Virus record (IMG/VR): IMGVR_UViG_3300012017_001157
Coordinates: 1-64,000 of that record
Source of the DNA: an uncultured virus (IMG/VR IMGVR_UViG_3300012017_001157)
Taxonomy: Duplodnaviria > Heunggongvirae > Uroviricota > Caudoviricetes
Direction: 5' to 3' (one strand)
Length of the DNA stretch: 64,000 nt
The translations under genes were made by a program, and so were the position numbers. Below the pieces are notes generated by a model. That model was not told where the DNA came from, searched no databases, and saw only the letters and a program-made list of their open reading frames with translations. Of this stretch, positions 35,541 to 57,763 are shown one piece after another (position 1 is the first letter of the stretch; every line of letters begins with the position of its first letter).

Positions 35541-35702
35541 TCTTCGAGATCAAGTAATCAAGCGGGCCGCCTTCGGGCGGCTCGTTTGTTTTTGTTCTCG
35601 CCCAAGGAGCTGCGGCTCCTTGGGGTAGAACGCTTGACGGCTGGGCTTTGGGTATGCGACAATCCACTAGGCGGCACTTGCCGTTGTAGTAAGGAGGCTA
35701 AA

Positions 35703-36463: not shown

Positions 36464-36581
36464 AGATAATAGTTCGGCTCCAAAGGGCCGCGGCCCTTTG
36501 GACTAGAACTTGACGCAATCTCGGGAAGTATGCGACAATCCACCTAGCGGCAGTTGCCGTTGAGAAAAAAGGAGGACGCAA

Positions 36582-37547
36582 ATGGCACACGAAGTAGAAA
36601 CGATGGCATACAACGCGGAAAGGGGCGCGCCGTGGCACAAACTCGGCGTTGCCAATAATGGACTCACAACGAGCGCGGAGATGATCGTTGCGGCTGGTCT
36701 TGATTGGGCAGTAAAGCAGCAACCGATCTTCACAACGCTTGACGGCAAGCAGATTGCGATCAACGGCAAGCGCGCAAATGTTCGCAGCACCGATGGTTCG
36801 GTCTTGGGCGTTGTCGGTGATCGCTACACGCCAATCCAGAACGACGAGATGATGTCGTTCGCGGACGCGTTGCTTGACGAGGGCGCACGCTACGAGTCGG
36901 CGGGTTCGCTCAAAGGTGGGCAGATCGTCTTCTCCGCGTTGGAGATTCCAGAGAAGATCAAGATCAAGGGCGACAATGGTGATACCAACACCTACCTTGT
37001 GATTGCCAATGGGCACAACGGCTTGTTCCCACTCAAAGCGATGATTACGCCAATCCGCGTTGTTTGTATGAACACGCTCAACGCAGCGTTGGGCAGCGCG
37101 AAGATGTCGTTCACACTTCGCCACACCGCGAAGATTGAGGAGAAAGTCGCAGAGGCGAAGCGCGCACTCGGACTTGCCGCAAGCGCGGTTGAGGAGTTTT
37201 CGGTCATCGGCTCGCGTATGATCGCGGAGAAGATGGATCGCGACGAAGCGTTCCGCGTGATTACGCGCATCTTCCCGCTGTCGGAGTCGGAGAAGCGTGA
37301 GAAGGAAGTAATGTCGGAGCGAGCGAAGGCAACAATCGCGATTCTCAATAACGCGGAGAATCTAGAAGGTTTGCGCGATACGAAGTGGGGCGTATACAAC
37401 GCCATCGCCGAGTATCTGGACTATGGCGTTTCGTATCGCGGCGGGGTACGCTCTTCTGCTTCGGACGCTCGTGCTTCTAGCGTAATGCTAGACACAGGTT
37501 TCGCAGCGAAGACAAAGCGCGAGGCAGTCCTCGCGCTTTCCCGATGA
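36582..37547 (+). CDS. DUF932 / TIGR03299-type phage-plasmid protein
   Basis: PWH.LG, AGLDW.V, Y.P.QN, AGSLKGG, TPIRVVC.NTL, T.WG.YNA..EY.D. Confidence 0.85.
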   Translation: MAHEVETMAYNAERGAPWHKLGVANNGLTTSAEMIVAAGLDWAVKQQPIFTTLDGKQIAINGKRANVRSTDGSVLGVVGDRYTPIQNDEMMSFADALLDEGARYESAGSLKGGQIVFSALEIPEKIKIKGDNGDTNTYLVIANGHNGLFPLKAMITPIRVVCMNTLNAALGSAKMSFTLRHTAKIEEKVAEAKRALGLAASAVEEFSVIGSRMIAEKMDRDEAFRVITRIFPLSESEKREKEVMSERAKATIAILNNAENLEGLRDTKWGVYNAIAEYLDYGVSYRGGVRSSASDARASSVMLDTGFAAKTKREAVLALSR

Positions 37548-37772
37548 TTGAGTTGTTTTGGGGCTTTCTTCTTCTGCTCGCTTCGTTTACATACGCAATC
37601 GTTAGCGAAGTAAGAAAGTAGCCCAAGAAAAACAAGCCCCCTTCGGGGGGCTTGTTTTTTGTTCAGCCCCAAATGGCCGCGGCCATTTGGGTTAGAACCC
37701 CTTGACGGCTGACGGCAAATCTGCTTACAATGGTGTTGCCCCGCTTGGGGTTTGTAATAAAGGAGGCTGGAA

Positions 37773-38419
37773 ATGGGATACGACATCTACTCGCTGCTAC
37801 CAGACCGAAAGGCTGCGGCTGAACACGCAAAGAAGCACCGCTCAATGTGGGTAAACGAGGACGGCTCGTATGACGAGAAGGCTCCCGATACGCTCTACTT
37901 CCGTCTGAACATCTGGGGTATGCCGATGTTGCGTGAGTTCCACGATGCGATTGGCTTTGACGAGGTGAACGAGAATCTACTTGATAATAGCGGCGAGGTC
38001 ATCAAGGACTATGAGTGCCGCGCACTCTCCGAGAAAATCGCGTCTATGAGCGATGAGCAAATCAAAAACGAAATGATTGCCATAATCGCAAACAATCCGT
38101 TTATGGACGACCACACGAAGGCGTTCCCAAGCGAGGAGGCGACTTCGTGGGTTGGTCTTATCCGAGAGTGGCAGGCGTTCTTGGAGAAGTGCGCTGACCT
38201 GAAAGGGTGTGAGGTATTGTGAGCCGCCTATTCCCCACATCTAAACGAAAGCCCTGCGACTGCCCGATGGATAGGCGGGAAGAGCATTGGCTTTGGTCTG
38301 ACTGCGACAAGCATTTAGAGGACTGCTATGTGGTGTGGTGTCAAGAGTGCGACATCTACTCGGCAGACTGCGATAACGGAGGATTGACTTGGCGTGAAAT
38401 CCCAAGCGACTGGAAGTAA
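37773..38419 (+). CDS. Two-gene cassette of hypotheticals (37773-38222, 38219-38419)
   Basis: MGYDIY...YFRLNIW family-type start; second ORF Cys-rich. Confidence 0.75.
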
Positions 38420-38538
38420 ATAAATAGTTCGCCCCCAGATGGCGGCGGCCATCTGGGATAGAACCTCTTGACGGATAGAAGCAAGTGGATTTACAATAGG
38501 GCTACCCCGCTTGGGGTGCTGCGAACAAGGAGGCAACA

Positions 38539-39032
38539 ATGGCGTACCTACAAGGCTCAATGACGATGTGTGGCAACGGAGATTGCTACTACGACCAATG
38601 CGAGTGCGAAACGCACGACCACCCGCTCGTTCAGGAGTGCGAGGGCGAGGAAGTGCTGCGACTTGATAAGCGTTGCCCATTTGAGGGCAAGGAGCGAAAG
38701 TTCCCCTATGGCTGGAACGGCGCAGAATACGCCTATGATGAAGTTCGTAATCTCTGCGATGACTGCTATGGTGCGCTTTAATGAGCGACCACTTTGAGAT
38801 TCCTGTTGGCGACCAGCAAGAAGCCGACGAGCGGACGCACCCCTGCGGCGATTGCGGTGAGGTCGTTGAGGATTGGTATCTTGCCGACAACAACTCCTCT
38901 GGGACGCTGCGAGTCTACTGCGGAAAGTGCGAGGAACACCGATCAGACAAGTACGGCTGCGCGATGATTCTTTCCGAAGGCGTGATGTGCCAAGACGGAG
39001 CGTGCGGCTGCGGCGGGACTGGCGTGTATTGA
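38539..39032 (+). CDS. Two small Cys-rich (Zn-binding) hypotheticals (38539-38781, 38781-39032)
   Basis: Multiple CxxC motifs; TAATG coupling. Confidence 0.7.
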
Positions 39033-39153
39033 GCAATAAATAGTTCGCCCCCAAGCACCCGCGGGTGCTTGGGCTGGAACATTTGACGGACAGCCCGAGG
39101 TATGGGACAATCCGATTGTCGGAAGTACCGACGCTGCGAATAAGGAGGAATGT

Positions 39154-39420
39154 ATGTCAACACCGATCGCTTGGCAGTTTGACGCTTCCGTTCATTGCCT
39201 AGCCTGCGCGAAGGCACGCTTCGGCGATACGCTTGACAGCGAAGACACGAAGGATAACGAGGGCAATAATCTTCACCCTGTCTTTGACTGGGACGAAGTA
39301 AACTGGTGCGGTGAATCTTGTGGGACTTGCCTTGAGTGGGCGATTGATCCCGTTGATCACGAGCCGTTCAGTTGCCTGCTAGGATACGACTGCCGCAAGC
39401 CACAAGCCGCGGCACTATGA
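39154..39420 (+). CDS. Small Cys-rich hypothetical
   Basis: HC..CA...D.EGN..HPVF...C..C; own promoter and RBS. Confidence 0.75.
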   Translation: MSTPIAWQFDASVHCLACAKARFGDTLDSEDTKDNEGNNLHPVFDWDEVNWCGESCGTCLEWAIDPVDHEPFSCLLGYDCRKPQAAAL

Positions 39421-39612
39421 CTACGGCGTAGGATAGAGCCTCCCCTACGCCCCAACAGAGGGATCAAGTTGATCGCAGCCAACTTGATCCCTCTTTTTTG
39501 TTCGCCTCAAACGGGCCGCGGCCCGTTTGACTAGAACCTCTTGACGACCTAGTGGTCGCTGTTGTACCCTTGTCTTGCGGCGAAGTAGTGCCGCAGAAAG
39601 AGGAGGCAAGAA

Positions 39613-40175
39613 ATGGGAAAGGGAGATAAGTCCGACTTCGCGGACTTCTCGTTCGTAAGCGAGGGAAGGATTGCCCTCATCACCCCACTCACAGCAGAGG
39701 CTCGCTCGTGGCTGCGCGATAGGGTGGACTCGGAGGCGACCTATTGGGGTCAGGCTCTTGTCGTTGAGCCGCGCTATGCCGAACCGATTCTGGAAGGAAT
39801 CGCGGCAGACGGATTCTCCGTTCTGGGTTGCGTATGAGCAGGGAAGACGCAGCCTTCTACACCTATCACGAGGACGACGAGGCGATCAAAGACCTCGGCG
39901 ACTATCTGGTGTTCAGGTGTGGCGTGATGAACATTAGGTACAAACGAGATAATGGGCAGTTTGTCCATCTTCGCACGACGAGGGACTTGGAAGATGTCGG
40001 CATAGACTCCGACGAGAAACTCGCAGAGGCGGAGAAAGACATTGAGCGATTTGAGTGGATAAATAACTCGTGGTTTGAGTTGATCCACAAATCCGAACTA
40101 GGCGAAGGATACGAACACCCTGTCTTCTATTCGTTGAGCGACGCAATCGCTTCCGCAGAAGCACCAGCAAACTAA
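39613..40175 (+). CDS. Two hypotheticals (39613-39837, 39834-40175)
   Basis: AGGAGG RBS; ATGA coupling. Confidence 0.75.
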
Positions 40176-40268
40176 ATAAATAGTTCGGCTCCAATCACCC
40201 GCCGGTGATTGGAATGGAACTGAAATAGGTGCTTGACAGGTCTGGCGAGGGTGTGGGAGAATCCCCTT

Positions 40269-40497
40269 GTCGGAAGCGATTCTAGATGAAGCGACACCGA
40301 CTAGGTGAGACTCTGGACGAGCGAGCAGATGCCGCAGCCAAAAAATGCGGGTATAGAGACGCAAAGGACGATGACCGCTAGGTGCCAATGGATCGGCGGA
40401 GCGGAAGGAAAAGGAGTCGGGGGAAGTGATTAGCCCCCGATGAATAATCCGAAACGAGACCCCCAGAGCGACGGCTCTGGGGGTTTCGTGCTTTATT
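40269..40497 (+). ncRNA. Putative non-coding RNA cassette (about 230 nt)
   Basis: Type-A element, TTGACA-18-GAGAAT promoter and terminator, but no AAGGAGG-ATG; only a 31-codon ORF (40286-40381) lacking a clear RBS. Confidence 0.5.
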
Positions 40498-40609
40498 AGG
40501 TTCAGCTGGAACAGGCGGCGGCCTGTTCCAATAGAACCTCTTGACACCTTGCAAGAAGTTTGATTACAATGGGTTCACCCCACTTGGGGCGGTAGCAGAG
40601 GAGGCTAAA

Positions 40610-40948
40610 ATGTTCAAGGCTCTGGCAGTTTCACTCAAGGCAAGCGACTTCACGAAGTTCCAGTGCTCGCAGGGCACTTGCGAGGGCGATTGGCTCGTTG
40701 AGCCAAATGTCGCTTCTCGTCTTGACGGATACGATCTGAAGTTCGCTGAAATCTACGGCGATATGTTGGATGGGTTCGCTCAGCCAGACGAGATGATCTC
40801 AACTGAACTTGATGGGACTTACGACAGGTTCGGCAACATCGTCGTCCACTGGCGCAACGATGGATTCATTGACTTCGTTGCCTTCTCAGAGGCGTGGGCA
40901 GCCGAGCGCGAGATGGCTGACATCATCGCGCTCCACCAAGCCGAGTAG
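40610..40948 (+). CDS. Acidic hypothetical protein
   Basis: Own promoter, RBS and cUUCGg terminator. Confidence 0.75.
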   Translation: MFKALAVSLKASDFTKFQCSQGTCEGDWLVEPNVASRLDGYDLKFAEIYGDMLDGFAQPDEMISTELDGTYDRFGNIVVHWRNDGFIDFVAFSEAWAAEREMADIIALHQAE

Positions 40949-41096
40949 TCCAGAAAGCAAAGATGCCGCCTTCGGGCGGCATTTTTGTTCGGCTCCAAGT
41001 GGCCGCCGCCACTTGGAATAGAACCCTTGACGGCTGGCTAGGTGTTCGCTTAGAATCGGAGTACCCCGATTGGGGCAGAGTAGCAAGGAGGCAGAA

Positions 41097-41378
41097 ATGA
41101 GCAAGGCAATCAAGTTGGCAGAGGCAGCCGAAATGATTCGCAGCAGCAACGGCGCAATCTTCGGCGTGGACTTCGTGAAGCGCACGACGGGCGAGGTTCG
41201 CAAGATGACGGCGCGGCTCGGAGTCAAGAAGCACCTCAAAGGTGGCGAGGCTGCGTATGACGCGGCGGCGAAAGACCTCATCTTCGTCTACGACATCACC
41301 AAGAAGGCGTATCGTTCGGTTGCGCTTGACGCAATCACGGCGGTTCGCTTTGGCGGCGAGGTCTACGAAGTCAAGTAA
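41097..41378 (+). CDS. SH3/WYL-like beta-barrel protein (DUF2693-like)
   Basis: F.V.FVK..GE.R.M.ARLGV...VYD....YRS..L..I pattern. Confidence 0.6.
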   Translation: MSKAIKLAEAAEMIRSSNGAIFGVDFVKRTTGEVRKMTARLGVKKHLKGGEAAYDAAAKDLIFVYDITKKAYRSVALDAITAVRFGGEVYEVK

Positions 41379-41502
41379 TCCGACGGAGGTCTGGGCAAGA
41401 AGGGCGAGGGCAACCTCGCCTTTTTTGTTCACCTCACACGGGCCGCGGCCCGTGTGATTAGAACTCTTGACGACAGAATAGAAGTCTGCTTATAATCAAG
41501 TA

Positions 41503-41715
41503 TCGGGTCGTGAGGAGACGACTAGTTGGTGGTAAGAATAACCACCCGAGACGATAAGACTGGCGGGCTTTGGCATTGACCAGCAGGGGTGCCGCCAGTA
41601 GTGGACTAGCGAAAGCGAAAGTCCACCTTCGCAAGAGGATAAGCGTCAATGCCGCGAAAGGGTTGGGGGGGTCGCAACTTGGGGGTGGTTCCCCTAGGCG
41701 ACTCCCCTTCATTTT
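41503..41715 (+). ncRNA. Putative structured non-coding RNA with pseudoknot (about 210 nt)
   Basis: TTGACG-18-TATAAT promoter, no RBS-linked ORF, consecutive hairpins with GNRA loops, loop GGCATTGAC complementary to downstream GTCAATGCC, terminal stem plus T-tract. Confidence 0.7.
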
Positions 41716-41828
41716 GTTCTGCTCCAAGTTGCCGCGGCAACTTGGATTTGAACCCTTGACAGGTCTGGAACTTATCGCGTAAGATTCTGGTGTCGGGGCT
41801 TCCCGATGAGTAGCAAGGAGGCAAGAAA

Positions 41829-42236
41829 ATGGGCAAGGCAATCAAGTTCGGAGTCGGGGCGTTTGAGGCTGGTGCGCCAACTCCCGCGCTGTTCAACTGG
41901 GTTGAGGTCGTGGACTTCAACGATGACGGCAACACGCTCACCGAACTCTACCGCGTGGGCGAGTGGGACATGACGGAGGTTGCGGTTTCTGGTAAGTATG
42001 GCGCAACGAGCGTCGTGCTCTGGTGCGATGAGGAGGGTCTCTACAACGAGCCAGTCCTCCGCAATCATGCGGCGACATCACTCCGCAACGAAATCCTGCG
42101 CGGATACGCTGACCCGATCTACGGCAACTGCGTACTCACCGCAGAGGACGAGGACGGCAAGACGCTCGCGCTCACCGATGAACAGGCTGCGGAAATCAAG
42201 ACGCTGCTAGAACTGGGCAACTACCCAATCAAGTAG
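41829..42236 (+). CDS. DUF3846-like protein
   Basis: LWCDEEGL...N..AT...I.GN.VL...D.DG...LT.EQ. Confidence 0.7.
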   Translation: MGKAIKFGVGAFEAGAPTPALFNWVEVVDFNDDGNTLTELYRVGEWDMTEVAVSGKYGATSVVLWCDEEGLYNEPVLRNHAATSLRNEILRGYADPIYGNCVLTAEDEDGKTLALTDEQAAEIKTLLELGNYPIK

Positions 42237-42403
42237 CGCGCACAAAATCGGGAACGACAACGGCGGGGAGAAATCCCCGCCGTTGTTTCTTTGTGGAGCT
42301 CCAACCTGCCGCGGCAGGTTGGAATAGAACACTTGACGAGCGGCTAGGAGTTCGCTTAGTATTCAGGGGCGGGGACTTCCCGCTAGGTAGCAAGGAGGCA
42401 AAA

Positions 42404-42733
42404 ATGAGCGAAGGCTACAATGGCTGGACGAACTGGGAAACTTGGGTCACCAATCTTTGGATTGAGGAGGGGCTGCTTGACCTCTTTGAGGTTGGCGAGC
42501 AGGCGCGCCACTTTGCAGAAACCAACGATAGCGACGGAAACTTCGCAGCCTATGAAATGGGGAGGTGGATTCGCGAGCAGGTTGAGGAGTTCATCGGCGA
42601 GCAGCCCGCGGGACTCGTTGCGGACTTCGTGGGCGGTTGTCTCTCGTCGGTGAACTGGACGGAAATCGCGAGCCATCACACGGACGAAGCGATTCGCAAC
42701 GAGCAGGAGCAGACGGCGAACGCGGAAGCGTAA
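42404..42733 (+). CDS. Conserved phage hypothetical (YNGWTNWETW family)
   Basis: YNGW.N.ETW..NLW...VNW.EIA. Confidence 0.75.
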   Translation: MSEGYNGWTNWETWVTNLWIEEGLLDLFEVGEQARHFAETNDSDGNFAAYEMGRWIREQVEEFIGEQPAGLVADFVGGCLSSVNWTEIASHHTDEAIRNEQEQTANAEA

Positions 42734-42865
42734 ACGAAAGCGGCAGGATTTTAGGTCGGCTCCACCCTGCCGCGGCAGGGTGGAATAGAACGCTTGACAA
42801 CCAAGCGGGAGTTCGCGTAGTATTGCCTTGCGGCACCTGCCGTAGAGGTAGCATAAGGAGGCAAG

Positions 42866-43150
42866 ATGTTTGGAGGGGACTTCGGTATCCAGGCAACCTA
42901 TGTGACGCGGTTCGTATCCACACCAGGGCACGGATACCTCGTAGCGGAGAAGGCAATGCTTCGCACGCTTGGTATCGCGGACAAGGTGAGCAACTGCTCG
43001 TATGAGCGCAATGGTAGCGTCTACCTAGAAGAAGATTGCGATGCGCCTCTCTTCATCGCGGCGATGGAGAAGAAGGGATTCTCGGTTTCATACAACTCGG
43101 TCAATGTTGATGATGAGTTCATTGACAAGATGGACTACTATCGCGGATAG
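42866..43150 (+). CDS. Conserved phage hypothetical (PGHG...YLEEDCD family)
   Basis: Motif pattern; own promoter, RBS and terminator. Confidence 0.75.
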   Translation: MFGGDFGIQATYVTRFVSTPGHGYLVAEKAMLRTLGIADKVSNCSYERNGSVYLEEDCDAPLFIAAMEKKGFSVSYNSVNVDDEFIDKMDYYRG

Positions 43151-43329
43151 CGCGCACAATCGTTAGCAACACACCAGCGGGATGCTACCCCCGCTGGTGT
43201 TTTCTTTTGTTCGGCTCTCGTGCGCCGCGGCGCACGAGACTCTCCCGAAACTAGGGGCTTGACGGATTGGAAATGGCGACTCTATGATGGGGCTACCCCG
43301 CTTGGGGTGGTAGCAATAAGGAGGCAGAA

Positions 43330-43539: not shown

Positions 43540-43760
43540 CTAACTAGCCCCCGCAGGTCTGGGACTTGCGGGGGCATAACATTTGTGGGGGCATTACGGG
43601 CCGCGGCCCGTAATGTTGGAACTTATATTATTCCCCGTTTATATTATTTATGTTATTTACTTATCACTTGTGTGTTAGACATCTAACAACAGCACCCAGG
43701 GTGCTGCGATAGAGCCTCCCCCCGACCACCGCGCCTGCGGCGATCGGGGGGAGGACTCCG

Positions 43761-44940
43761 TTAGCGCCAGCCGTCCTCGTGCTGCGTCAACGGATCGGTT
43801 TCATCTTCGCGCTTCGACGCGTAATCCAGGTTGCGCTCCTTTCGATCTTCCTCGTCGCGCTGCCACTCTTCTTCGCGCTCCTCGACGCACTCCTCGCAAA
43901 GAATCGCGTCGAAGTCGCTGTGCGGCTCAACGCTCGACAAAGCGCTTGTTCCGCAATCCTCACACTCGACGCAATCGTCGCAAAGCATTTGCTCGATCGT
44001 TTCGCGGAAAGAAACTTTCGCCGCGTGCGGAGTGCCTTCATCGATTCCGCAATCCTCACATCGCTGCTCGTCAATGCAGCATTGTTTGCAATCTCCTTTC
44101 TTCGTCATCTCGCATTGTCCGTGTGCTTCACACTCAAACATCGTGAACCTCCAATGCTGTTGCGAGGTGCGAGCGCCGCGCGCCCGCACCCCGCTGTGAT
44201 TACGCGTTAGCAGCGTCGCGCTGCTTCGCTGTTGCTTTCGCAACCGACTTCATCGCGCTTGCAAGTTTCGCTTGCAGCGCGCTCGTGTTCTCCTCGAAGT
44301 ATGCGAGCGTTGCCGTTGCCGTTGCGAGTGCCGCTTCCGACTTCGCAACCAACTTCTTGTTTGGCTTCGACTCGATCGCAAGTTCCACGAGTGTTGCGCG
44401 CTCAAACTCGACAACATCGGCAGCAAGCGCGCGCTGCTCAATGCTGCGTGCAAGCAACTTGTTGATCACGCCGATCGACTCCGTTGCTGTGCGCTTTGTT
44501 TGCTTTGCTTTCTTGCTCATTGTGCTGTCCTCCAAACTTGTGGAGTGTGGAAGCGCCGCGCGCTTCCACACTCCTTTGCTTCACTCAACGACGCAGGTTT
44601 CTGCTTGGTCGATGTAGATGTCCATACGCGTTGCAACCGCGTCGCAATCCGCGCACTCCCATCGACCGAGAGCAGCAATCTCCTCGTCGTGCTCGTCGCG
44701 ATGCTGCGACAACCACGCGGCAATCTCTCCCGCGTAGTCGTGCGGCGATTCGATTGCGTCGACCGCGTGGTCGGCGGTGTCGAGCGTTCGCGCAAACTCG
44801 ACAACATACTCGTTGAGAAGTTGCGCGTACGCCACACGCGCTTGCAGCGAGTTGCTGCGATTCTCAACAAACTTCCAATGGTGCGTGGTGAGTTGAGCAC
44901 CACGCTCCAACAAGATTGCGATGCGCTTCATCGCTCCCAT
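43761..44940 (-). CDS. Three-gene minus-strand cassette (43761-44141 Cys-rich acidic, 44200-44520 Ala/Lys-rich helical, 44581-44940)
   Basis: Each has a GGAGG RBS and a preceding hairpin. Confidence 0.75.
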
Positions 44941-45201
44941 CGTGAACCTCCAATGCTACCTGCGACGCTTCACCATCACATCGGCTCCTTCGCCGTAGTG
45001 CCGCCGCTGCACCCATCATCAGGCTTCTACTCCGTGAGATTTTTTTTCTCGGGTCGTACGCGCCGGAGGCGCGCCCATGGAACTTATTCCTCTTATTTAT
45101 TTATTTATATTGTGAGGGGGTTAGAGATATAACAGCAGCACAGGGTGCCGCGGTATAACTAACCCCCCTCCCACCGCGCTGGGTGGAAGGGGGGCTAGAC
45201 T

Positions 45202-46358
45202 TTAGGAGATCGTGAAGCAGCGTGCCACGACGTATCCAGAAGCGTAGTCCTCATGCTGACCACACTCCTTGATGATCTCCTGAACGCTCCGATTGTGAGC
45301 GATCTCAAGATTCTCTGACCACTCCTTCAGGTAGAAGTGACCCGTTGGAAGAATCTTCTCAGTGTTCACCGAGAGCGCGCACAGCAGTTCATCTTCAGTC
45401 CACAACGTAACGGCAGTGTTGCCGTTGTGATACAGGACGATCTGAACTTCTGCGTCGTATTCCGTTTCAAATGCGCGAACCTTGATCTTCTTTCCTTCAG
45501 ACTTGAACATGATTCCCTCCTTCACTAATGGTGAAGTGCGAGCGTCGCATTCGCTCGCACTTCGTTTGACTACTTGGCCGCTACCTTTTCGTACGCGCCA
45601 GAAGCGACTTTGTACGAAACGACGCTCAGCACCTTGTCGCCGCATGAAACGCAAAACGGAACATGCTCGTACGTTTCCCTTACGTCCATCTCGCCGACAA
45701 TGTCCTTCGCCGTGAGTGCGCGGATTGGAAACTCAATCTTCGCCCTGATGATCTCATCAAGATCAAATCCAAGTGTTCCGCATCCAAAGCAAACGTAAAA
45801 CTCGCCAATGTCAAACGCTTCAACTTCAATAGTTTCGTCAACGCGTCCGACTGCGCTCAAACTAACTTTCGTCCTCATGATCATCTCCTTCAATGCTTGT
45901 GAGGTGCGAGCGTCGCATTCGCTCGCACCTCGTTTGATTGAACTGCGACGAGATTCCTACTCGCAGGGTTCCTCGTCGCCGCTCTCAATAGAATGCGCTT
46001 CAGCGTCGCACTCTATACAGTGCCAATAACCAAACTTGCGAGTCATGTACTCCTTCTCTGAAGTTGCGACGTCCATGTTCTCAATGAACTCCGCAACGCC
46101 ATCAAGAAACTTGTGAGGCTTCTCAAGGACGTACATCGCTTCCGCGCCAGTGCTCTTTGTTGCTGCGTACTGCTCAATGATTTCTCGTGAACCATTGTGG
46201 AGCGACCACGCAACATCATCGTAATCATCGTCAGCATCTCTGGCGATGAACTCCCATTCGTGCGTGCGCTCCTCTTGAGCCACGATTGGATTCACGACTT
46301 CACTGACGACTTCAGCGAAGAGGTTTGCGCGCTGTTGCGAGCGTTCCTTCTCGGACAT
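45202..46358 (-). CDS. Three-gene cassette (45202-45510 DUF4313-like, 45570-45878, 45957-46358)
   Basis: Y.NG.TAV.L...LSVN motif in the first; AGGAG RBSs. Confidence 0.7.
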
Positions 46359-46613
46359 CTCTGTCCTCCTTTTTGCTACCGCGCACTTCGGTGTCGCAAC
46401 GGCTCATGCCGCACCGCGTCCGCTGACCCCATCATCGCGTTTCTGTTGATTGAGATTTTTAGGCCGAGGTCGTACACGCCGGAGGCGTGGCCATGGAACT
46501 TATTGCTCTTATTTATATTCATATTGTGTGTTAGATATAGAACTACAGGCCCCAGGGGGCCGCGATAGAGCAATCCCCCCAACCGCGGGACCTCGCGGCT
46601 GGGGGGATGTCTG

Positions 46614-46955
46614 CTAGACGTAGATCGTTTCGCGTTCCTTGAATCCGTAGATCGCACGCTGACGATTCGCCTTCGCAGTGCCTAGCGCAGCGCGCCTGCT
46701 GCTGATGATCGTGGTGGGGTCAACGTGAATCATCCCATCCTCTACCCACGCGCCTGCGTGACGCGTGTTGTACCGTACTGCGCATTCCAACAGTGCAGTG
46801 CGCAGTGCACGCTCAGTAGTATCAAGCGGCAGCAGTACTGCAGTCCGATCAGTGGAACCCACTGCGTACCCGCGTGCAGGATTCACTGCGCGCATTCCGC
46901 GCGCGCGTACCGTCACGCCGCCTAGCGTGGCGATCAGTGCCAATAGCGATTCCAT
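46614..46955 (-). CDS. Conserved phage hypothetical (GG.T...GY.V...G.W...Q.AIY)
   Basis: Motif pattern; GGGAGG RBS. Confidence 0.7.
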   Translation of the reverse strand: MESLLALIATLGGVTVRARGMRAVNPARGYAVGSTDRTAVLLPLDTTERALRTALLECAVRYNTRHAGAWVEDGMIHVDPTTIISSRRAALGTAKANRQRAIYGFKERETIYV

Positions 46956-47228
46956 ACCGTTCCCTCCCGTACTGATGCGACGCCACAGCAGCGCCGCTGA
47001 CCCCATCATCGCCGAGTCATACGGAGAGATTCTTTTTCTGGTGCTGTACGCGCCGGAGGCGTGTCTATCGAACTTATTACTTATATTTAGTTACTTATAT
47101 TCCACAAGAGAGTGCGACCGCCACCTGGGCGCTAGATAAAAAAAGAGAAAAAAATAAAGGAGCGAGCAGGGGGCTCTCTCGTCCCCCTGCTCCCTTGCCT
47201 CGCCCGCCTTTATACGCGGGCCGATCCG

Positions 47229-47459
47229 TTAGGCGATCGCGCGGCGCACGATGCCTTGATGGCGCGATGTGGTCACGCTCCATCGCGTGGGGTCAATGCT
47301 CCACACGCCATTGGTAAAATCCGCGATGCATACGCGGTACGAATACACCATGTATTGCGTACCGATCAATTCGCCGCGGAAATTTCCCGTGTGCGAAACA
47401 AACGGTAGCCGCTCCTTGATGCGGTCTATCGCTTGCTTGCGGTTGATCCGCTTGCCCAT
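47229..47459 (-). CDS. Conserved phage hypothetical (YSY...TTSRHQ family)
   Basis: Motif pattern; AGGAGG RBS. Confidence 0.75.
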   Translation of the reverse strand: MGKRINRKQAIDRIKERLPFVSHTGNFRGELIGTQYMVYSYRVCIADFTNGVWSIDPTRWSVTTSRHQGIVRRAIA

Positions 47460-47694
47460 TTGCGTATCCTCCTATTGCTGCAGCGCCCTTGCTATCGGGG
47501 CTAGGCACATCATCCCCTATTGATACGGCGCGGTATTTCTTCTCAGCTAGTACGCGCCGGAGGCGTGTCTATCGAACTTATTACTTATATATTGTTACTT
47601 ATATATCTCTTGTGAGTTACACATCTAACAGCAGCACGGGGGGCCGCGACAGAACTTTCCCCCCCACCGCGCGTCCGCGGTGAGGGGGAAGTCC

Positions 47695-48006
47695 TTACTG
47701 AATCGACTGGATTTGGATTCCCTTGTTGCCTTCCCAGTCGGTACCCTTCTCGGCTGCTACCTTCTCCAATTGCGAAAGGTAGAATCGCTGCTTCTCCAAT
47801 TCGAGACGAGCGCGAAGGTACGCCATTCGGCTGGCGCCAACATTCTCGCTTGCCTTGATCGCATCACCAGCGCTTCCCGTGATCGTTGCGAGCGAAAGAA
47901 TCGCTTCTGCTTTCGCGACAAGATTCTCCGTTTCCGCGAAGATGTCTTGCGCTTCTGCTACCACCTTGCGAAGCGCTTCGATCGCTTCGCCGATTGTCTT
48001 GATCAT
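47695..48006 (-). CDS. Helical hypothetical protein
   Basis: Behind a type-B promoter; AAGGTGG RBS. Confidence 0.65.
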   Translation of the reverse strand: MIKTIGEAIEALRKVVAEAQDIFAETENLVAKAEAILSLATITGSAGDAIKASENVGASRMAYLRARLELEKQRFYLSQLEKVAAEKGTDWEGNKGIQIQSIQ

Positions 48007-48262
48007 TCCAAGCCACCTTTCTGCTAGACCATTGTGATGTCGCATTCATCACACCGCGCGTCCGCGGCTGCTCCATCATCTCCTAGATGTTGATTCGCGT
48101 TCTTTTAGCGGCGTCGTACTCGCCGGAGGCGAGCCTGTCGAACTTATGTTGTTATGTTACTTACTTATAGTCAGTCAGTTAGAGATAGAACAGCAGCACC
48201 CGGGGGGTTGCGAGAGAACTTCCCCCCGCCCACCGCGCCTGCGGTGAACGGGGGGAGGCCGA

Positions 48263-48929
48263 TCAGACGATGACCAGTCGTGCGTTCCAGTCCGTTCCAG
48301 TATTCCATCGTTCGCGTACGATCCACGCGCCGTCCTCATCCTGACGCAACACTTCGTATCCGATCGGATCGAGCGCGTCCTTCAGAATGAAGAATGCGCG
48401 GGTATCGAGTTCGTCGATCCACGACGATGGACGATCCTTCCGAATCGCTTCGATAGCCTTCACGATCCTATCCGATACACGATCGGATTCTGCTTCCATC
48501 CTAGTGCGATTCTCGCGCTCCGTCAGCGTCGAGCGATGCTCATACACGAGCCTCCATTCGATCGGGTTCACGTGCTTCACCATTGTGATTCTCCCTTCAG
48601 TGAAGTGATGCGCGGCGTCGCATTCGCCGCGCATCACCATCACGCTATTGCCAGACGATTCTATTGCGGAAGAATGCTGGTAGTTCGTACCAGACTTCGT
48701 CTTCCACTAGCACTCGCTTCGCTTCAGCGTCGCTGAAGTAGTGAATGCCGCCATAGCCGTCCGCTTCCATCACCATCAGCGCGTTCGCATTCGCGCTAAG
48801 TGCGACGTGGTAGCGGTGCGGCTTCGGACTCATCACGCCTTCCGTATTCACGCAAGTGATCGTGATGACGTCATCAGCATCACCGCGTACGGTGACGTCG
48901 CAACCTTCATCAGGTCGATGCCAAGTCAT
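48263..48929 (-). CDS. Two-gene cassette (48263-48583, 48645-48929)
   Basis: AAGGGAG RBSs; intercistronic hairpin. Confidence 0.65.
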
Positions 48930-49193
48930 ACCATTGTCTCCCTTCCGAGCCTTCGGTGGCTCGGACTCATCATCGCGCACTCATACAATAGCGTTTTCAT
49001 ACTCGGTCTGTACTCGCCGGAGGCGAGTCCATCGAACTTATTATGTTATTTGTTATTTATATTCATACTGTGAGTTACATATAGAACAGCAGCCCCAGGG
49101 GGCGCGACCGCCACCGAAGTCACATAGGTACAAAGAAGCCCCCGCCCTCCGCGCGCTCGCGGAGGACGGGGGCGGTTGCGTTCCGTGTGTGTG

Positions 49194-49577
49194 CTATCGC
49201 TTGCCGTAGCGGCGGCGCATCTTCTCATCGGCAACGATCACCGCGAAGATTGCGAGCCACGCCGCGCCCACGCTCGCCACACCCAGAAGGAGCGACATCG
49301 CATCGCCCGCACCCAGGAGCCACGAGATCGCCGTCCCAGCGATTCCAGACACCGCGCAGACCAGACCGAACGCGACAACCTCGCCGTCTGCTTCGCGTGG
49401 ATTCTTCGCGTAGCGGTGTTCCATTGCGAGATCGCCGATCTCGTAAACGAAACCCGCGAACGATACAACGCCGAGAGCCGCGAAACCGAAGAGAACCGAC
49501 AGCACCGCATCGCCGCGGAGAACGAAAGAAAGAGCCGCCGCCGCCATCGGCGAAAGAAGAAGTAGCATCGCGTACAT
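49194..49577 (-). CDS. Four-TM membrane protein, first gene of the type-B array
   Basis: Four hydrophobic segments; AGGAGG RBS. Confidence 0.7.
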   Translation of the reverse strand: MYAMLLLLSPMAAAALSFVLRGDAVLSVLFGFAALGVVSFAGFVYEIGDLAMEHRYAKNPREADGEVVAFGLVCAVSGIAGTAISWLLGAGDAMSLLLGVASVGAAWLAIFAVIVADEKMRRRYGKR

Positions 49578-49820
49578 TGTGTGTGCCTCCTAACTACTAC
49601 CGCGGCGGCAACGCCACCGCTGACCCCATCATCGCCTATGGTCTTGATCGTGCTTTCTTTGGGGGCGTGTAGCATCCGGAGGATGCTCCCAACCCCCAGA
49701 ATGCGTCCTCGACCCCCCTCCCCCACCGTGCGACTAGGGACGCGGCGGATTTTTTTACAGACGAGGGGTTGGCGGTTCTATAATCGCTTGCGGAGGGCCT
49801 TCCAGAAGCCCCGGAAATGC

Positions 49821-50319
49821 CTATTTGCGGCCCGTAGAGCCCTGTTGATTCGCCTGGCGTATCGTGAGCTCCCACGCGAGCCTACAGACCGCCTCGTGAG
49901 GATTTCTTCCTCGTGCCGATACGACCGCCCCTTTTCGGCTGTGCGCGACTGCCATCCAGTCGTTGTCGACCATTGCGCGGTGAACGCCGTGAATGGTGAA
50001 TCCGAATCCAGAAACGGCTGCGTCTGCCTCCTCAAAGGAGAGCATTGCAAAGTCAACCCACTTAGACATTCTCTTCTCCGGATACAAGTTTCTGGACTGC
50101 AATCTCTGGGGTCTCGCCGACAGCGCGACGCTTAACGATCCAGTTTCCCTTCGGCGACTCGGTGCCGCGAAGGTAGTCAAGTGCTGTATCGACATTCTCT
50201 GCCTTTGGGTCCCACGCACTAGTGCATACGGCCCATTCCTTTGTCTCGTGCAAATACTCCATGATCGAAAGCACCTCTCCTTCTGGGAGCTGCGCCGCGA
50301 GTCGTTCAATCCTGCTCAT
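49821..50319 (-). CDS. Two small hypotheticals (49821-50069, 50062-50319)
   Basis: Coupled ORFs ending the 50-58 kb operon; similar A.G..P..AV..L C-termini. Confidence 0.6.
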
Positions 50320-54043: not shown

Positions 54044-54421
54044 TCAGAACGGAACCTCGGAAAAGTCTTCTTCAGGCGCGGCCTGCTTGACTGCGCCAGC
54101 GGCACCCTTGCCCTTGGCAAGAAGATCAAATGTGCGCGCCGTGATCTGAATGGAAGACTTGGACTCGCCGCTGCGGGTCTGAAAAGTCTTCACGGACGGA
54201 ACGCCTTCAACGCACACAAGATCACCCTTGTCGAGCAGCTGTACAGCAAGTTCTGCCTGCTTCTCCCAAATGGATACGTCGTACCAATTGGTGGTCTCTT
54301 CACCGCCGCGCTTGTTCTTTACCGCAACGCTGAACGATGAAACGTTCTTTCCTGTCTTGGTGTTGCGAAGTTCTGGCTTGCTTCCAAGCCTGCCAGTTAC
54401 TTCAATCCTTTCCTTTGCCAT
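54044..54421 (-). CDS. ssb: Single-stranded DNA-binding protein
   Basis: GRLG..PELR.T..G..V..FSVAV, W..V..W...AE, KGD.V.VEG, acidic tail ending VPF. Confidence 0.92.
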   Translation of the reverse strand: MAKERIEVTGRLGSKPELRNTKTGKNVSSFSVAVKNKRGGEETTNWYDVSIWEKQAELAVQLLDKGDLVCVEGVPSVKTFQTRSGESKSSIQITARTFDLLAKGKGAAGAVKQAAPEEDFSEVPF

Positions 54422-57167: not shown

Positions 57168-57763
57168 CCGACGAGCTCAGCTCGGCGAGCGCGGAATCTC
57201 TTGATCAAGAACTCACGGGAAAGTTCGTCAATATCAACACCGTCGGCGTTCGACTCATTGATCGACTTTCCAATCTCAGTAAGTTCATCAATCGTCTTCG
57301 CCTTGGCGAATGCATCGACAAACTTCTGGATGTGTGGCGGGAGTGCGACGTCTTCGTCAAAAACCTCAGCGGCGGCCTTTGCTGCTGACTTTCCGCCCTT
57401 TGACTTGATCTCGTCGTCAGACGCGATTCTCTTTGACGGAAGGCCAGCCATTACCAACGCGCGACCAACTGCCGATGTCTCGCAATTCTCAATCTCTGAG
57501 CCGCGGGTGTACGGCGTTGCGCCAGGAATCTGCATTGCGCTGTGTCCAATTCCCGCTGGGCGATCATCCATAAAGCCAAGTGCATCGTCAGGTCCGTTGT
57601 CGCCCTTAACGCCGCGATATGCTCGCGCCTCTACGACTACACGCTTTTCGGTGTGCTCAACAATTCTGGTTTCAATGCGTGCGTTGGGGTACGCCTCGTA
57701 CCATGCGCGGATTCGCTCTGCGACATCCACGTAATCCTTAAGTGCGCTCTTATCGAATGCCAT
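57164..57763 (-). CDS. Putative ssDNA-annealing protein (Sak/Rad52-like)
   Basis: YVDVAERI, ENCETSAVGRAL..G, AS.DE; adjacent to the exonuclease. Confidence 0.6.
   Translation of the reverse strand: MAFDKSALKDYVDVAERIRAWYEAYPNARIETRIVEHTEKRVVVEARAYRGVKGDNGPDDALGFMDDRPAGIGHSAMQIPGATPYTRGSEIENCETSAVGRALVMAGLPSKRIASDDEIKSKGGKSAAKAAAEVFDEDVALPPHIQKFVDAFAKAKTIDELTEIGKSINESNADGVDIDELSREFLIKRFRARRAELVG

What the first reader, a model, noticed from the sequence alone, without database searches (positions are those of the whole stretch)
45014..49687. Second promoter class: template-strand C-GGA-G hairpin at an invariant 44 nt from a GATGATG box, with no -35
Seen: seven minus-strand cassettes share plus-strand CATCATC ending at 45020, 46436, 47010, 47514, 48080, 48974 and 49633, with a GGA loop starting exactly 45 positions later in all seven. 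Stems co-vary (cgcgcc/ggcgcg, cacgcc/ggcgtg, ctcgcc/ggcgag, agcatcc/ggatgct). Where a -35 should lie there is an A-rich hexamer instead of TTGAC. Established: C-GNA-G triloops form unusually stable DNA mini-hairpins, and coliphage N4 virion RNA polymerase recognises template-strand hairpins with a 5-7 bp stem and such a 3-nt loop. Inference: these are hairpin-dependent immediate-early promoters. The hairpin is much further from the presumed start than in N4, so a hairpin-binding activator working with host RNA polymerase is more likely than a direct N4 mechanism.
Basis: partly seen in the sequence, partly recalled or inferred. Interest (0 to 1): 0.87.

Follow-up and report, generated by a model that had tools for sequence, protein, structure and literature searches.

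The report
Hairpin-marked promoters in a freshwater phage
A freshwater phage places the same rigid unit (a small DNA hairpin like the one phage N4 uses, then a GATGAT box 44 bases later) in front of seven small gene cassettes, which looks like a new promoter type read by the host's RNA polymerase.

Summary
All seven minus-strand cassettes carry CATCATC, 44 nt, then a GGA triloop on the plus strand. That is 7 matches against 0 in 100 shuffles, and the 73-kb record holds no others. Three related phage records bring the total to 25 elements with identical spacing. The 6-bp stem covaries strongly (0 of 500 shuffles reach the observed score).

My best reading is a phage-specific promoter class used by host RNA polymerase. 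GATGAT is the -10 element (A-11 and T-7 always kept). It is followed by a G-rich discriminator and a Y-R start 7 nt downstream, then a 5'-terminal leader hairpin, as in the phage's own TTGACR-N18-TAnAAT promoters. An A-tract sits where -35 should be. The hairpin centre falls at about -58.

In the N4 register (loop centre = -11), +1 lands on a conserved TAC|RR. However, I found no virion or T7-like RNA polymerase and no sigma factor in a 94%-complete sister genome. "Immediate-early" timing is unsupported. No RNA data exist, so the start site remains inferred.

The parts
49621..49696 (-). Promoter unit c7, the first of the array. Hairpin 49671-49687 (7 bp, plus-strand loop GGA 49678-49680). TAC is GTA on the plus strand at 49669-49671, and its T also closes the 7th stem pair. 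A-tract 49653-49659. GATGATG 49627-49633. Predicted start under the best explanation is 49621; under the N4 register it is 49668. This unit has no GTTC box and no AT-rich block upstream.
48962..49037 (-). Promoter unit c6. GTTC box 49034-49037 (GAAC on the plus strand). Hairpin 49012-49028 (7 bp). GATGATG 48968-48974. Predicted starts 48962 (best explanation) or 49009 (N4 register).
48068..48143 (-). Promoter unit c5. Hairpin 48119-48133 (6 bp). GATGATG 48074-48080. Predicted starts 48068 or 48115.
47502..47577 (-). Promoter unit c4. Hairpin 47553-47567, with one G.T on the plus (template) strand, which is A.C on the sense strand. GATGATG 47508-47514. Predicted starts 47502 or 47549.
46998..47073 (-). 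Promoter unit c3. Hairpin 47049-47063, with the same G.T on the template strand as c4. GATGATG 47004-47010. Predicted starts 46998 or 47045.
46424..46499 (-). Promoter unit c2. Hairpin 46475-46489 (6 bp). GATGATG 46430-46436. Predicted starts 46424 or 46471.
45008..45083 (-). Promoter unit c1, the last of the array. Hairpin 45059-45073 (6 bp). GATGATG 45014-45020. Predicted starts 45008 or 45055.
43648..43754 (-). Terminator module after the last cassette: G/C-run hairpins, the GCAGCACC..GGTGCTG-TTGTT terminator and part of the AT-rich block, with no promoter unit behind it. Copies follow every cassette (45096-45192, 46504-46610, 47080-47200, 47592-47688, 48152-48258, 49050-49175). This assigns the AT-rich block to the terminator module, not to the promoter.
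   Evidence: (families D7, D8, D12)
43761..49577 (-). Cassette genes, 12 small ORFs with Shine-Dalgarno sites: 49194-49577 (c7, hydrophobic sequence by eye, possibly membrane; not predicted with any tool); 48645-48929 and 48263-48583 (c6); 47695-48006 (c5); 47229-47459 (c4); 46614-46955 (c3); 45957-46358, 45570-45878 and 45202-45510 (c2); 44581-44940, 44200-44520 and 43761-44141 (c1). None has a Pfam family; 2 of 12 hit PHROGs of unknown function.

Best explanation
Each unit is a promoter of a phage-specific class read by the host's sigma70-type RNA polymerase. It is not an N4-type polymerase promoter.

Proposed anatomy:
- GATGAT is the -10 hexamer.
- The G-rich stretch after it is the discriminator.
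- Transcription starts at the conserved pyrimidine-purine step 7 nt downstream. On the minus strand this is window 45008, 46424, 46998, 47502, 48068, 48962 and 49621.
- The mRNA begins with a protective stem-loop.
- There is no -35 hexamer. An A-tract (AAARAY) sits there at the same 18-nt spacing that the phage's consensus promoters use.
- About 20 nt further upstream, centred near -58, lies a 6-7 bp hairpin followed by TAC.

Proposed mechanism: the hairpin is extruded from supercoiled DNA, and its template-strand form is a stable C-GGA-G mini-hairpin. A trans-acting factor recognises it and holds the polymerase on a promoter that cannot bind sigma region 4. The factor is most likely a small phage protein made from the early sigma70-type array, possibly helped by the phage's own SSB. 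The rigid 44-nt spacing reflects one protein complex touching both the hairpin and the -10 element. These cassettes would then be delayed-early or middle genes.

Shown here: the unit, its spacing, the covariation, the -10-like features and the absence of a phage polymerase gene.
Inferred: the start site, DNA extrusion of the hairpin, the existence and origin of the factor, and the timing.
For: 1. One unit lies between the terminator and the ribosome-binding site of every cassette. The array has 7 in G000, 8 in G001, 7 in G002 and 3 in G003. All 25 have loop-to-box spacing of 44 nt. Of 27 CCTCCGG hairpins found without reference to the box, only 2 weak ones inside genes lack it.

2. The spacing is under selection. 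The segment at sense positions 32-46 has only 37% mean pairwise identity yet no indel. The flanks do shift: the terminator tail lies at -65 to -77 and the start codon at +82 to +125.

3. GATGAT behaves as a -10 element.
   - A-11 and T-7 are kept in 25 of 25 elements; the only substitution in the hexamer is at -8 (GATGCT).
   - G at -14 occurs in 16 of 21.
   - The five positions after the box are mostly G, in 12-18 of 21.
   - The step before the start is a pyrimidine in 19 of 21 and the start a purine in 21 of 21.
   - The phage's own sigma70-type promoters include GACAAT, GAGAAT, GAAAAT and TATGAT hexamers and use an 18-nt spacer.

4. A stable leader hairpin begins 4-9 nt after GATGAT in 13 of 21 class-2 elements and 4-10 nt after the -10 hexamer in 7 of 16 class-1 promoters. 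In the others the minimum-free-energy fold adds outer pairs that start at 1-3.

5. Orthologous promoters of G000 and G002 are conserved from GATGATG into the leader but diverge in the 35 nt before it. A metagenome variant of c2 differs mainly at positions 30-46.

6. With that start, the hairpin centre is at -58. The sigma70-type class carries its own covarying palindrome centred at -55.5 to -58.5 in 10 of 16 promoters and one helical turn further (-67.5 or -68.5) in 3 of 16.

7. The hairpin is structural, and the evidence leans to the template strand.
   - Covariation is strong.
   - All 3 non-Watson-Crick cells in the 6-bp core (2 independent events) are G.T on the template strand and A.C on the sense strand.
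   - Template-strand DNA folds are uniform at -5.8 to -8.2 kcal/mol; sense-strand folds range from -3.8 to -9.5.
   - Only G-N-A triloops closed by C:G form mini-hairpins (PMC13037366, passages).
   - The loop's 5'G and 3'A and the closing C:G pair are the bases N4 needs for extrusion at physiological supercoiling (PMC4496689, passages).

8. I found no phage polymerase or sigma factor.
   - PF00940 gave no match in G000-G003.
   - N4 mini-vRNAP and N4 RNAPII gp16 gave no match at E<=10 in G000-G002.
   - Sigma70_r2 gave no match, although the control rang in 11 of 14 reference genomes.
   - The only giant ORF (2794 aa, present in G001 only) matches tape-measure families and nothing in the PDB.

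9. The phage encodes an SSB at 54044-54421.
Against: - No transcript data exist. No RNA run holds the phage, so the start site is inferred only.
- The N4 register fits remarkably well. The loop and closing pair are identical, 9 nt separate the loop from a conserved purine pair (19 of 21 and 20 of 21), and the template -1 is an invariant purine. The contiguous conserved block GTTC..hairpin..TAC-RR also looks like a single-subunit-polymerase promoter.
- GATGATG is invariant, unlike the variable -10 hexamers of the sigma70-type class. That suggests recognition by something more specific than sigma region 2, or a function in RNA.
- No activator candidate was identified. No MotA, AsiA, Mor or Ogr-type family turned up among about 120 ORF translations scanned. 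Only generic HTH proteins were found (57750-58031, 24259-24612).
- The strand evidence rests on 2 independent events. One G.T at the 8th position of a G002 stem points the other way.
- The sigma70-type promoters do not need activation yet also have a palindrome at about -58. The upstream structure may therefore serve something other than activation.
- The 21 'distinct' elements include close G000/G001 pairs, so the independent sample is nearer 14-15.
- G001 is rated 94% complete and the sequence searches are insensitive to very divergent polymerases. A novel enzyme cannot be excluded.
Confidence: 0.45

Rival explanations
1. True N4-style hairpin promoter. An unrecognised phage polymerase (injected or made early) binds the extruded template-strand C-GGA-G hairpin and starts 11 nt from the loop centre, at the purine right after TAC (window 45055, 46471, 47045, 47549, 48115, 49009, 49668). 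The A-tract and GATGATG would then lie in the 5' leader.
For: - The template loop is 5'-GGA-3' closed by C:G in 25 of 25 elements. That matches N4 P2 (GAAGC-GGA-GCTTC; PMC13492108), and all N4 extrusion determinants are present (PMC4496689).
- In the N4 genome, P1 reads GTTGC-TTC-GCAAC-TTAT-GG and P2 reads AGAAGC-TCC-GCTTCT-TTT-GG on the sense strand. That is 9 nt from loop to +1, the same as stem(6)+TAC here.
- Sense positions 12 and 13 are purines in 19 of 21 and 20 of 21. The template -1 is G in 21 of 21, as in T7-like promoters (PMC4496689).
- Conservation is contiguous from GTTC to TAC-RR.
- The layout of promoter, small gene and terminator resembles the N4 early region.
- LUZ7 uses GC-rich hairpins for a small second polymerase as well (PMC9163698).
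Against: - No T7-like, N4 vRNAP-like or N4 RNAPII-like gene was found in G000-G002.
- The giant ORF is tape-measure-like.
- The base N4 recognises as -8G is C here in every element.
- This model does not explain why GATGATG stays exactly 35 nt after the start, with a -10-like pattern, a Y-R step and a hairpin behind it.
- It also does not explain why the intervening 35 nt evolve faster than the leader.
Confidence: 0.17
2. Host-polymerase promoter as in the best explanation, but the hairpin is not an activator site. It would be a protein-independent or host-factor element shared with the sigma70-type class. Possible roles are a cruciform that senses or buffers supercoiling, insulates neighbouring cassettes, or serves as a homology and structure point for cassette shuffling.
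For: - Both promoter classes carry a covarying GC-rich palindrome preceded by GTTC at about -58. The consensus class should not need an activator.
- G001 has one extra cassette inserted exactly between two units, relative to G000. This is the pattern reported for PeSL promoter-terminator cassettes of T4-like phages (PMC4122927, abstract).
Against: - The palindrome-to-promoter distance varies in the sigma70-type class: palindrome centres at -55.5 to -58.5 in 10 of 16 and at -67.5/-68.5 in 3 of 16. It is invariant in the hairpin class (25 of 25).
- The invariant asymmetric loop and TAC argue for sequence-specific recognition.
- A promoter with no -35, no TG extension and a G at -12 should be weak without help.
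Confidence: 0.17
3. RNA-level element. The hairpin and GAUGAUG would be transcribed (by read-through or from a start in the AT-rich block) and act in the mRNA as a processing, stability, antitermination or translational-control site. For example, the CCUCC apex could act as an anti-Shine-Dalgarno sequence, or AUGAUG as a leaderless mini-ORF.
For: - The sense-strand apex CCUCC is complementary to the GGAGG ribosome-binding sites used throughout.
- ATGATG opens short frames of 2 to 51 codons.
- c7 has no obvious terminator upstream, so its hairpin could be transcribed.
Against: - The two mismatch events within the core stem give A.C in the sense RNA.
- C-UCC-G is not a known stable RNA loop.
- The mini-ORFs are not conserved as peptides; one is ATG ATG TGA.
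- One copy per cassette behind a terminator is what a promoter needs, not an antiterminator.
- No minus-strand sigma70-like promoter was found in the AT-rich blocks.
- c7 lacks the AT-rich block.
- No Rfam family reached threshold.
Confidence: 0.08
4. A DNA-transaction signal rather than a promoter. The mini-hairpin would act as a priming site on single-stranded DNA (as in RSF1010 ssiA or the phage G4 origin) or as a recombination site.
For: CCGAAGG-type mini-hairpins occur at primase recognition sites (PMC13037366, passages). All copies lie on one strand. The phage has an initiator, a DnaC-like loader, RusA and SSB.
Against: - No primase gene was found.
- The elements sit exactly where each cassette needs a promoter.
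- They are coupled to a -10-like box, a start step and a leader.
- Seven copies within 4.7 kb and none elsewhere in 73 kb.
Confidence: 0.04

Closest known systems
Coliphage N4 early promoters (P1-P3) for the virion RNA polymerase, and early promoters of other Schitoviridae such as LUZ7
   Same: Both have a template-strand hairpin with a 5-7 bp covarying stem and a 3-nt G-R-A loop closed by C:G (GGA in N4 P2 and here). Both have 9 nt between the loop and a conserved purine on the sense strand, and a purine at template -1. In both, arrays of promoter, small gene and terminator units are used (PMC4496689, PMC13492108, PMC9163698, passages).
   Different: No vRNAP or any T7-like polymerase gene was found. 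The phage has a tape-measure gene, so it is long-tailed rather than a podovirus. The N4 -8G is C here. An invariant -10-like box lies 44 nt from the loop, together with an A-tract, and neither has a counterpart in N4. The array sits in the middle of the contig.
T4 middle promoters (MotA/AsiA sigma appropriation)
   Same: Both have a host-type -10 element plus a phage-specific upstream element at fixed distance that replaces -35. In both, the class is expressed after an early class with strong sigma70 promoters (PMC2988021, passages).
   Different: The T4 element is a duplex 9-bp MotA box centred at -30. Here the elements are an A-tract at the -35 place and a structured hairpin at about -58. 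No MotA or AsiA homologue was found.
P2/P4 late promoters activated by Ogr/Delta (TGT-N12-ACA)
   Same: Both are -35-poor promoters with a dyad element upstream that is read by a small phage activator (PMC3931495, passages). The position near -55 is recalled, not taken from a call.
   Different: The P2 dyad has conserved half-sites and a free centre. Here the centre is invariant and the arms are free but complementary, which indicates intrastrand pairing. No Ogr-type protein was found.
PeSL promoter-terminator cassettes of T4-like phages
   Same: Both have composite terminator-plus-promoter repeats flanking small variable ORFs. In both, cassette gain or loss between close relatives occurs at the repeats (PMC4122927, abstract; PMC2839356, search listing only).
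   Different: PeSL promoters are ordinary early sigma70 promoters, and the stem-loop there is the terminator. Here the hairpin is separate from the terminator and rigidly coupled to a -35-less promoter.
Mini-hairpin priming signals (RSF1010 ssiA, phage G4 origin)
   Same: Both have a CC-GNA-GG type DNA mini-hairpin as a recognition aid on single-stranded DNA (PMC13037366, passages).
   Different: Those are one or two per replicon at origins. Here there is one per gene cassette, coupled to promoter-like features.

Membership tests
N4-type vRNAP hairpin promoter | 3-nt loop 5'-G-R-A-3' on the template strand closed by a C:G pair | tested here: met
   GGA closed by C:G in 25 of 25 elements of four records. 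The criterion comes from PMC4496689 and PMC13037366.
N4-type vRNAP hairpin promoter | 5-7 bp stem whose variable positions only need to pair | tested here: met
   6-7 bp stems. Four of the 6 core pairs show changes on both sides, and 0 of 500 shuffles reach the observed score.
N4-type vRNAP hairpin promoter | Conserved stem base -8G contacted by the specificity loop | tested here: not met
   The template base at -8 is C in all 21 distinct elements. The apex is CC-GGA-GG, against GC-GGA-GC in N4 (PMC13492108).
N4-type vRNAP hairpin promoter | Transcription start 11 nt from the loop centre (template +1 C) | not testable with these tools
   No RNA run holds the phage. The sequence shows a purine on the sense strand at that position in 19 of 21; the template base is C in 9 and T in 10.
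N4-type vRNAP hairpin promoter | A virion-packaged T7-like RNA polymerase encoded by the phage | tested here: not met
   PF00940 gave no match in G000-G003. N4 mini-vRNAP and RNAPII gp16 gave no match at E<=10 in G000-G002. The 2794-aa ORF hits only tape-measure families and no PDB chain. These sequence searches could miss a very divergent enzyme.
Sigma70-type promoter | -10 hexamer with A at -11 and T at -7, and a purine start about 7 nt downstream | tested here: met
   GATGAT (once GATGCT) in 25 of 25 elements. Among the 21 distinct elements, position +1 is a purine in 21 of 21 and -1 a pyrimidine in 19 of 21. That this is the actual start is not shown.
Sigma70-type promoter | -35 hexamer resembling TTGACA 16-18 nt upstream | tested here: not met
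   AAARAY lies at that place. The consensus scan found no minus-strand hit at any of the seven units.
Activator-dependent -35-less phage promoters (T4 MotA/AsiA, P2 Ogr, Mu Mor) | A homologous activator gene in the phage | tested here: not met
   Pfam, PHROGs and NCBIfam scans of about 120 ORF translations returned no such family. Small ORFs without any family remain as candidates.
PeSL-type shuffling cassette boundary | Repeated terminator-plus-promoter composite between small ORFs, with indels at the repeats between close relatives | tested here: met
   Seven repeats are present (families D3, D4, D7, D8). G001 has about 450 bp and one extra unit between the homologues of c3 and c2.
Any Rfam RNA family | Match at the gathering score | tested here: not met
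   Only two sub-threshold matches, at 26.9 and 23.1 bits against gathering scores of 92.6 and 71.

The most novel reading that the evidence does not exclude
A long-tailed phage with no polymerase gene of its own uses the N4-type, supercoil-extruded template-strand C-GGA-G mini-hairpin as the upstream recognition element of bacterial RNA polymerase promoters that lack -35. Recognition would be through a hairpin-binding factor, perhaps with the phage SSB. This would be structure-specific activation of the multisubunit host enzyme. It would mean the DNA mini-hairpin promoter signal is older and more widespread than the Schitoviridae polymerase that made it famous. The bolder alternative is that an unrecognised injected or early polymerase starts at TAC|R.
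Probability: 0.35. Interest if true: 0.85.

Novelty: new variant of a known kind. Interest (0 to 1): 0.7.

Why it matters
Promoter recognition through an extruded DNA hairpin is known only from N4-like phages and their own polymerases. Here the same apex is rigidly coupled to a host-type -10 box, in an unrelated phage without a detectable polymerase. This is either a second, independent use of the signal with bacterial RNA polymerase, or a pointer to an unknown polymerase or hairpin-binding transcription factor.

Either outcome is directly testable. The two models predict different 5' ends 47 nt apart at seven sites. The unit is compact (76 nt), and natural stem variants already provide the compensatory-mutation series.

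It also gives a clean example of two promoter classes arranged as converging arrays of shufflable cassettes.

Tried and rejected
- **RNA evidence.** The run search listed no RNA holder for window 44000-50000.
- **Known phages.** blastn of 44900-49800 against 50,697 phage records gave no match. The terminase has only hits below 30% identity.
- **More relatives.**
  - The IMG/VR pattern scan gave 31 loci with 39 matches and 24 distinct sequences. Six of these (L009, L015, L020, L022, L032, L033) are stemless chance hits in coding-like DNA.
  - The metagenome scan added only 3 new variants.
  - Distant homologues (32-55% identity) of the c4 protein in other phages lack the element. The element therefore seems confined to this phage group.
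- **A second -10 candidate.** In G002, AATAAT or TATAAT lies 9 nt before GATGAT. I rejected it because G000 has AATCAA, TCCGTA or ATCAAG there, without T at the last position.
- **AT-rich block as promoter or UP element.** Rejected. It follows the last cassette without a promoter and is absent before c7.
- **Other regulators.** NtcA (GTA-N8-TAC), sigma54 (GG-N10-GC), an IHF site and sigma-E-like GAACTT were checked by eye against the position table. None fits.
- **Giant ORF as a polymerase.** No support from PHROGs, Pfam, PDB, NCBIfam or the ESM Atlas.
- **Host identification.** The scan with the phage's sugar epimerase gave 593 relatives across many phyla and was uninformative.
- **Earlier notes of this scan.** None for this genome.
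- **Supplementary files of papers.** Not consulted. The LUZ7 promoter tables may hold motif details that bear on the N4-family comparison.

Full report
**What the window is.** The window is the first 64 kb of a 73,042-bp IMG/VR virus record (G000, rated 85% complete).
- Gene content is that of a tailed phage that relies on the host for replication and transcription.
  - Present: terminase, portal, prohead protease, major head protein, tail fibres, DnaC-like loader, initiator, RusA, PD-(D/E)XK exonuclease, SSB and MazG.
  - No cultured phage is close. blastn gave no match, and the terminase is below 30% identical to any of 221 matching records.
- DNA runs that hold the region are labelled freshwater, lake water and, for three, fungus metagenome.
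- Three related records were fetched.
  - G001 is 79,109 bp, rated 94% complete, and 94-99% identical over the shared blocks. It lies in reverse orientation, and its block order fits a circular permutation of G000.
  - G002 and G003 are about 75-80% identical.
  - G001 holds about 13 kb that G000 lacks. This includes a 2794-aa ORF that matches only tape-measure families.

**The observation.** I confirm it in full.
- CATCATC ends at the seven stated positions, and GGA starts 45 positions later in each.
- The composite pattern occurs 7 times against 0 in 100 shuffles, and nowhere else in the 73-kb record.
- Five stems are perfect (6-7 bp). Two (c3, c4) have one G.T on the plus strand.
- I then searched the four records for CCTCCGG hairpins without reference to the box. 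This returned 27 hairpins. 25 lie in the cassette arrays, and every one has GATGAT (one GATGCT; three are followed by T instead of G) at the same distance. The other 2 are weak and lie inside genes.
- New stems appear in the relatives: ggcccc, gacgcc, ggcacc, ggctcc and gtgcaccc.
- On 18 distinct elements, 92% of cells pair against 67% in shuffles. Four of the six core pairs change on both sides, no shuffle of 500 reaches the score, and slid registers pair 31-44%.

**Anatomy of the unit.** Positions are on the gene-sense strand with the T of the TCC loop as 0, from 21 distinct elements.

| Sense position | Feature | Conservation |
|---|---|---|
| -16 to -13 | GTTC | 19 of 21; the two c7-type elements lack it |
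| -6 to -1 and 3 to 8 | Stem | top two pairs CC/GG invariant |
| 0 to 2 | TCC loop | invariant |
| 9 to 11 | TAC | T 19, A 20, C 21 of 21 |
| 12, 13 | Purines | 19 and 20 of 21 |
| 14 to 17 | C-rich run | |
| 21 to 27 | A-tract, then a pyrimidine at 28 | |
| 32 to 46 | Poorly conserved segment | 37% mean pairwise identity |
| 47 to 52 | GATGAT | |
| 53 to 57 | G-rich | |
| 58 | Pyrimidine | 19 of 21 |
| 59 | Purine | 21 of 21 |

- The block from -16 to about 61 has no indel in any element. The flanks shift: the terminator tail lies at -65 to -77 and the start codon at +82 to +125. The spacing is therefore selected, not merely inherited.
- The AT-rich block and the CTGCTGTT motif upstream belong to the preceding cassette's terminator module. 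A copy follows the last cassette (43648-43754) with no promoter behind it, and the first unit (c7) has none before it.

**Where transcription probably starts.** Six lines of evidence point to GATGAT as a -10 hexamer with the start at position 59.
1. A-11 and T-7 are never changed. The single substitution is at -8.
2. The phage's other promoter class consists of about 16 near-consensus TTGACR-N18-TAnAAT sites on the plus strand between 33.4 and 43.3 kb. The scan found 26 sigma70-like hits there against 9.7 +/- 3.0 in shuffles. This class tolerates G at -12 (GACAAT, GAGAAT, GAAAAT), includes one TATGAT-GGGG, and uses an 18-nt spacer. That is exactly the distance from the A-tract hexamer to GATGAT.
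3. In both classes a stable leader hairpin begins a few nucleotides after the hexamer, at 4-10 nt in class 1 and 4-9 nt in class 2. In some sequences the MFE fold adds outer pairs. The RNA would therefore start with a stem-loop.
4. Between orthologous units of G000 and G002, conservation resumes at GATGATG and runs into the leader, while the 35 nt before it diverge. A metagenome variant of c2 differs mostly at positions 30-46.
5. With this start, the hairpin centre is at -58. The sigma70-type promoters carry their own covarying palindrome, GTTC-N4-CCAnnnnnGCCGCGGCnnnnnTGG-N4-GAAC. It is centred at -55.5 to -58.5 in 10 of 16 and one helical turn further in 3 of 16.
6. I found no phage polymerase or sigma factor.

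**The N4 connection.**
- The review of N4 polymerases (PMC4496689, passages read) states that the template loop is -10G, -11G, -12A with a sheared G:A pair. It also states that the loop's 5'G and 3'A and the closing C:G pair are needed for extrusion at physiological supercoiling, and that the polymerase reads -11, -10G, -8G and +1C.
- The P2 oligonucleotide in PMC13492108 has GAAGC-GGA-GCTTC.
- In the N4 genome itself, the sense strand reads stem-T(T/C)C-stem, then T-rich bases that complete 9 nt, then GG.
- The elements here read stem(6)-TCC-stem(6)-TAC-RR. The loop and closing pair are identical, the 9-nt distance is the same, and the template -1 is a purine.
- It keeps a true N4-type mechanism alive at about 17%. 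Against it stand the missing polymerase, the C at -8, and the unexplained -10-like box 35 nt downstream.
- Mini-hairpin chemistry (only G-N-A loops closed by C:G; PMC13037366) favours the template strand as the structured one. So do the two G.T events and the uniform template-strand energies. The strand evidence is thin, however, and one G.T at an eighth stem position in G002 points the other way.

**Mechanism proposed.**
- The sigma70-type array is the early class.
- The hairpin class is a dependent, probably delayed class. The polymerase's -35 contact is replaced by a factor that recognises the extruded mini-hairpin plus TAC, and perhaps the A-tract.
- The logic resembles T4 middle promoters, which have a host -10 plus a phage box in place of -35 (PMC2988021). 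It also resembles P2 late promoters, which have an upstream dyad read by Ogr (PMC3931495). The difference is a structural rather than duplex signal.
- No homologue of those activators was found. Candidates are the many family-less small ORFs, an XRE-type HTH protein (57750-58031) and the phage SSB.
- Because the consensus class also has a palindrome at about -58, I give 17% to the variant in which the structure is not an activator site. It would instead be a supercoiling or insulation device, or a recombination point. G001 has gained or G000 has lost one whole cassette exactly at the repeats, as described for PeSL elements (PMC4122927, abstract).

**What is not shown.**
- No transcript 5' end has been seen.
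- Extrusion is inferred from N4.
- The factor is hypothetical.
- Timing is inferred from promoter quality.
- The host is unknown (one search was uninformative).
- The independent sample of elements is about 14-15, not 25.

**Verdict.** This is a real, selected and compact cis-element, and most likely a new promoter class. It is a new variant of the hairpin-promoter idea rather than a member of the N4 family, because two defining N4 features were tested and not met.

Noticed in passing
window 33446-43290 (+), e.g. 40987-41056: A converging array of about 16 near-consensus TTGACR-N18-TAnAAT promoters, each before a small gene. Each is preceded by a 38-40 nt covarying palindrome, GTTC-N4-CCAnnnnnGCCGCGGCnnnnnTGG-N4-GAAC (15 copies). 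The palindrome centre lies at -55.5 to -58.5 in 10 of 16 promoters and at -67.5 or -68.5 in 3 of 16, which suggests dependence on the helix face. Its genes include DUF932, DUF3846, DUF7249 and DUF1281_C families.
   Followed up: partly
window 45539-45563, 45907-45931, 48041-48053, 48611-48638 (-): Four RNA-type hairpins have an identical 7-nt loop AAUGCGA and unrelated, complementary stems of 7-14 bp. Each lies 12-25 nt before the Shine-Dalgarno site of a gene inside or at the head of a cassette. They may be a processing or translational-control site. Related loops occur in G001 and G002.
   Followed up: partly
window 45135-45192, 46555-46610, 47639-47688, 48200-48258: The terminator modules contain two overlapping alternative hairpins: a C-run...G-run hairpin, and a G-run-(A)AGTTCTnTCGC-C-run hairpin. 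They lie ahead of the GCRGCACC..GTGCTGC-TGTT terminator, an attenuator-like arrangement. On the plus strand the module carries a GCCGCG-ATAGAAC motif like the one beside the sigma70-type promoters.
   Followed up: no
L036 (G001) about 7200-7680; window 46477-46571: G001 has one extra cassette between the homologues of c3 and c2. Its unit deviates at both boxes (CAC for TAC, GATGCT for GATGAT). This shows cassette gain or loss at the repeated units.
   Followed up: partly
L034:10333-18717 (+), G001 only: A 2794-aa ORF whose only recognisable part is a tape-measure domain (residues about 1264-1378). The first ~1200 residues have no match in Pfam, PHROGs, NCBIfam, the PDB sequences or the ESM Atlas. 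The contig break in G000 removes it.
   Followed up: partly
window 49700-49822 and 49822-50070 (-): A conserved 83-aa ORF (MSKWVDFAML...) ends at about 49822. The 130-nt spacer before unit c7 is strongly conserved between G000 and G002 (GGACGCATTCTGGGGGTTGGG next to the hairpin, plus TTATAGAACC). On the plus strand, 49753-49785 reads TTTACA-N19-TATAAT, pointing away from the array.
   Followed up: partly
window 1166-8420, 20166-20828, 22626-23294, 25772-28552: A large set of possible DNA- or sugar-modification genes: several glycosyltransferases, 2OG-Fe(II) oxygenase domains, a thymidylate-synthase-like protein, two ParB-like proteins, a sugar epimerase/dehydratase and methyltransferases. If the DNA is hypermodified, this could affect promoter recognition and hairpin stability.
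   Followed up: no
window 1-102: About eight tandem copies of a 12-nt unit (GCTCTGGCGTGG and variants) lie at the contig start, inside an open frame on the minus strand. G000's contig start lies here, and beyond position 1179 G000 and G001 diverge.
   Followed up: no
L096 (genome contigs): The best genome hit to the phage's sugar epimerase (70% identity, E 7e-159) lies at the end of a 75-kb contig binned as a Patescibacteria MAG from a lake sample. The contig may be a mis-binned relative of this phage.
   Followed up: no
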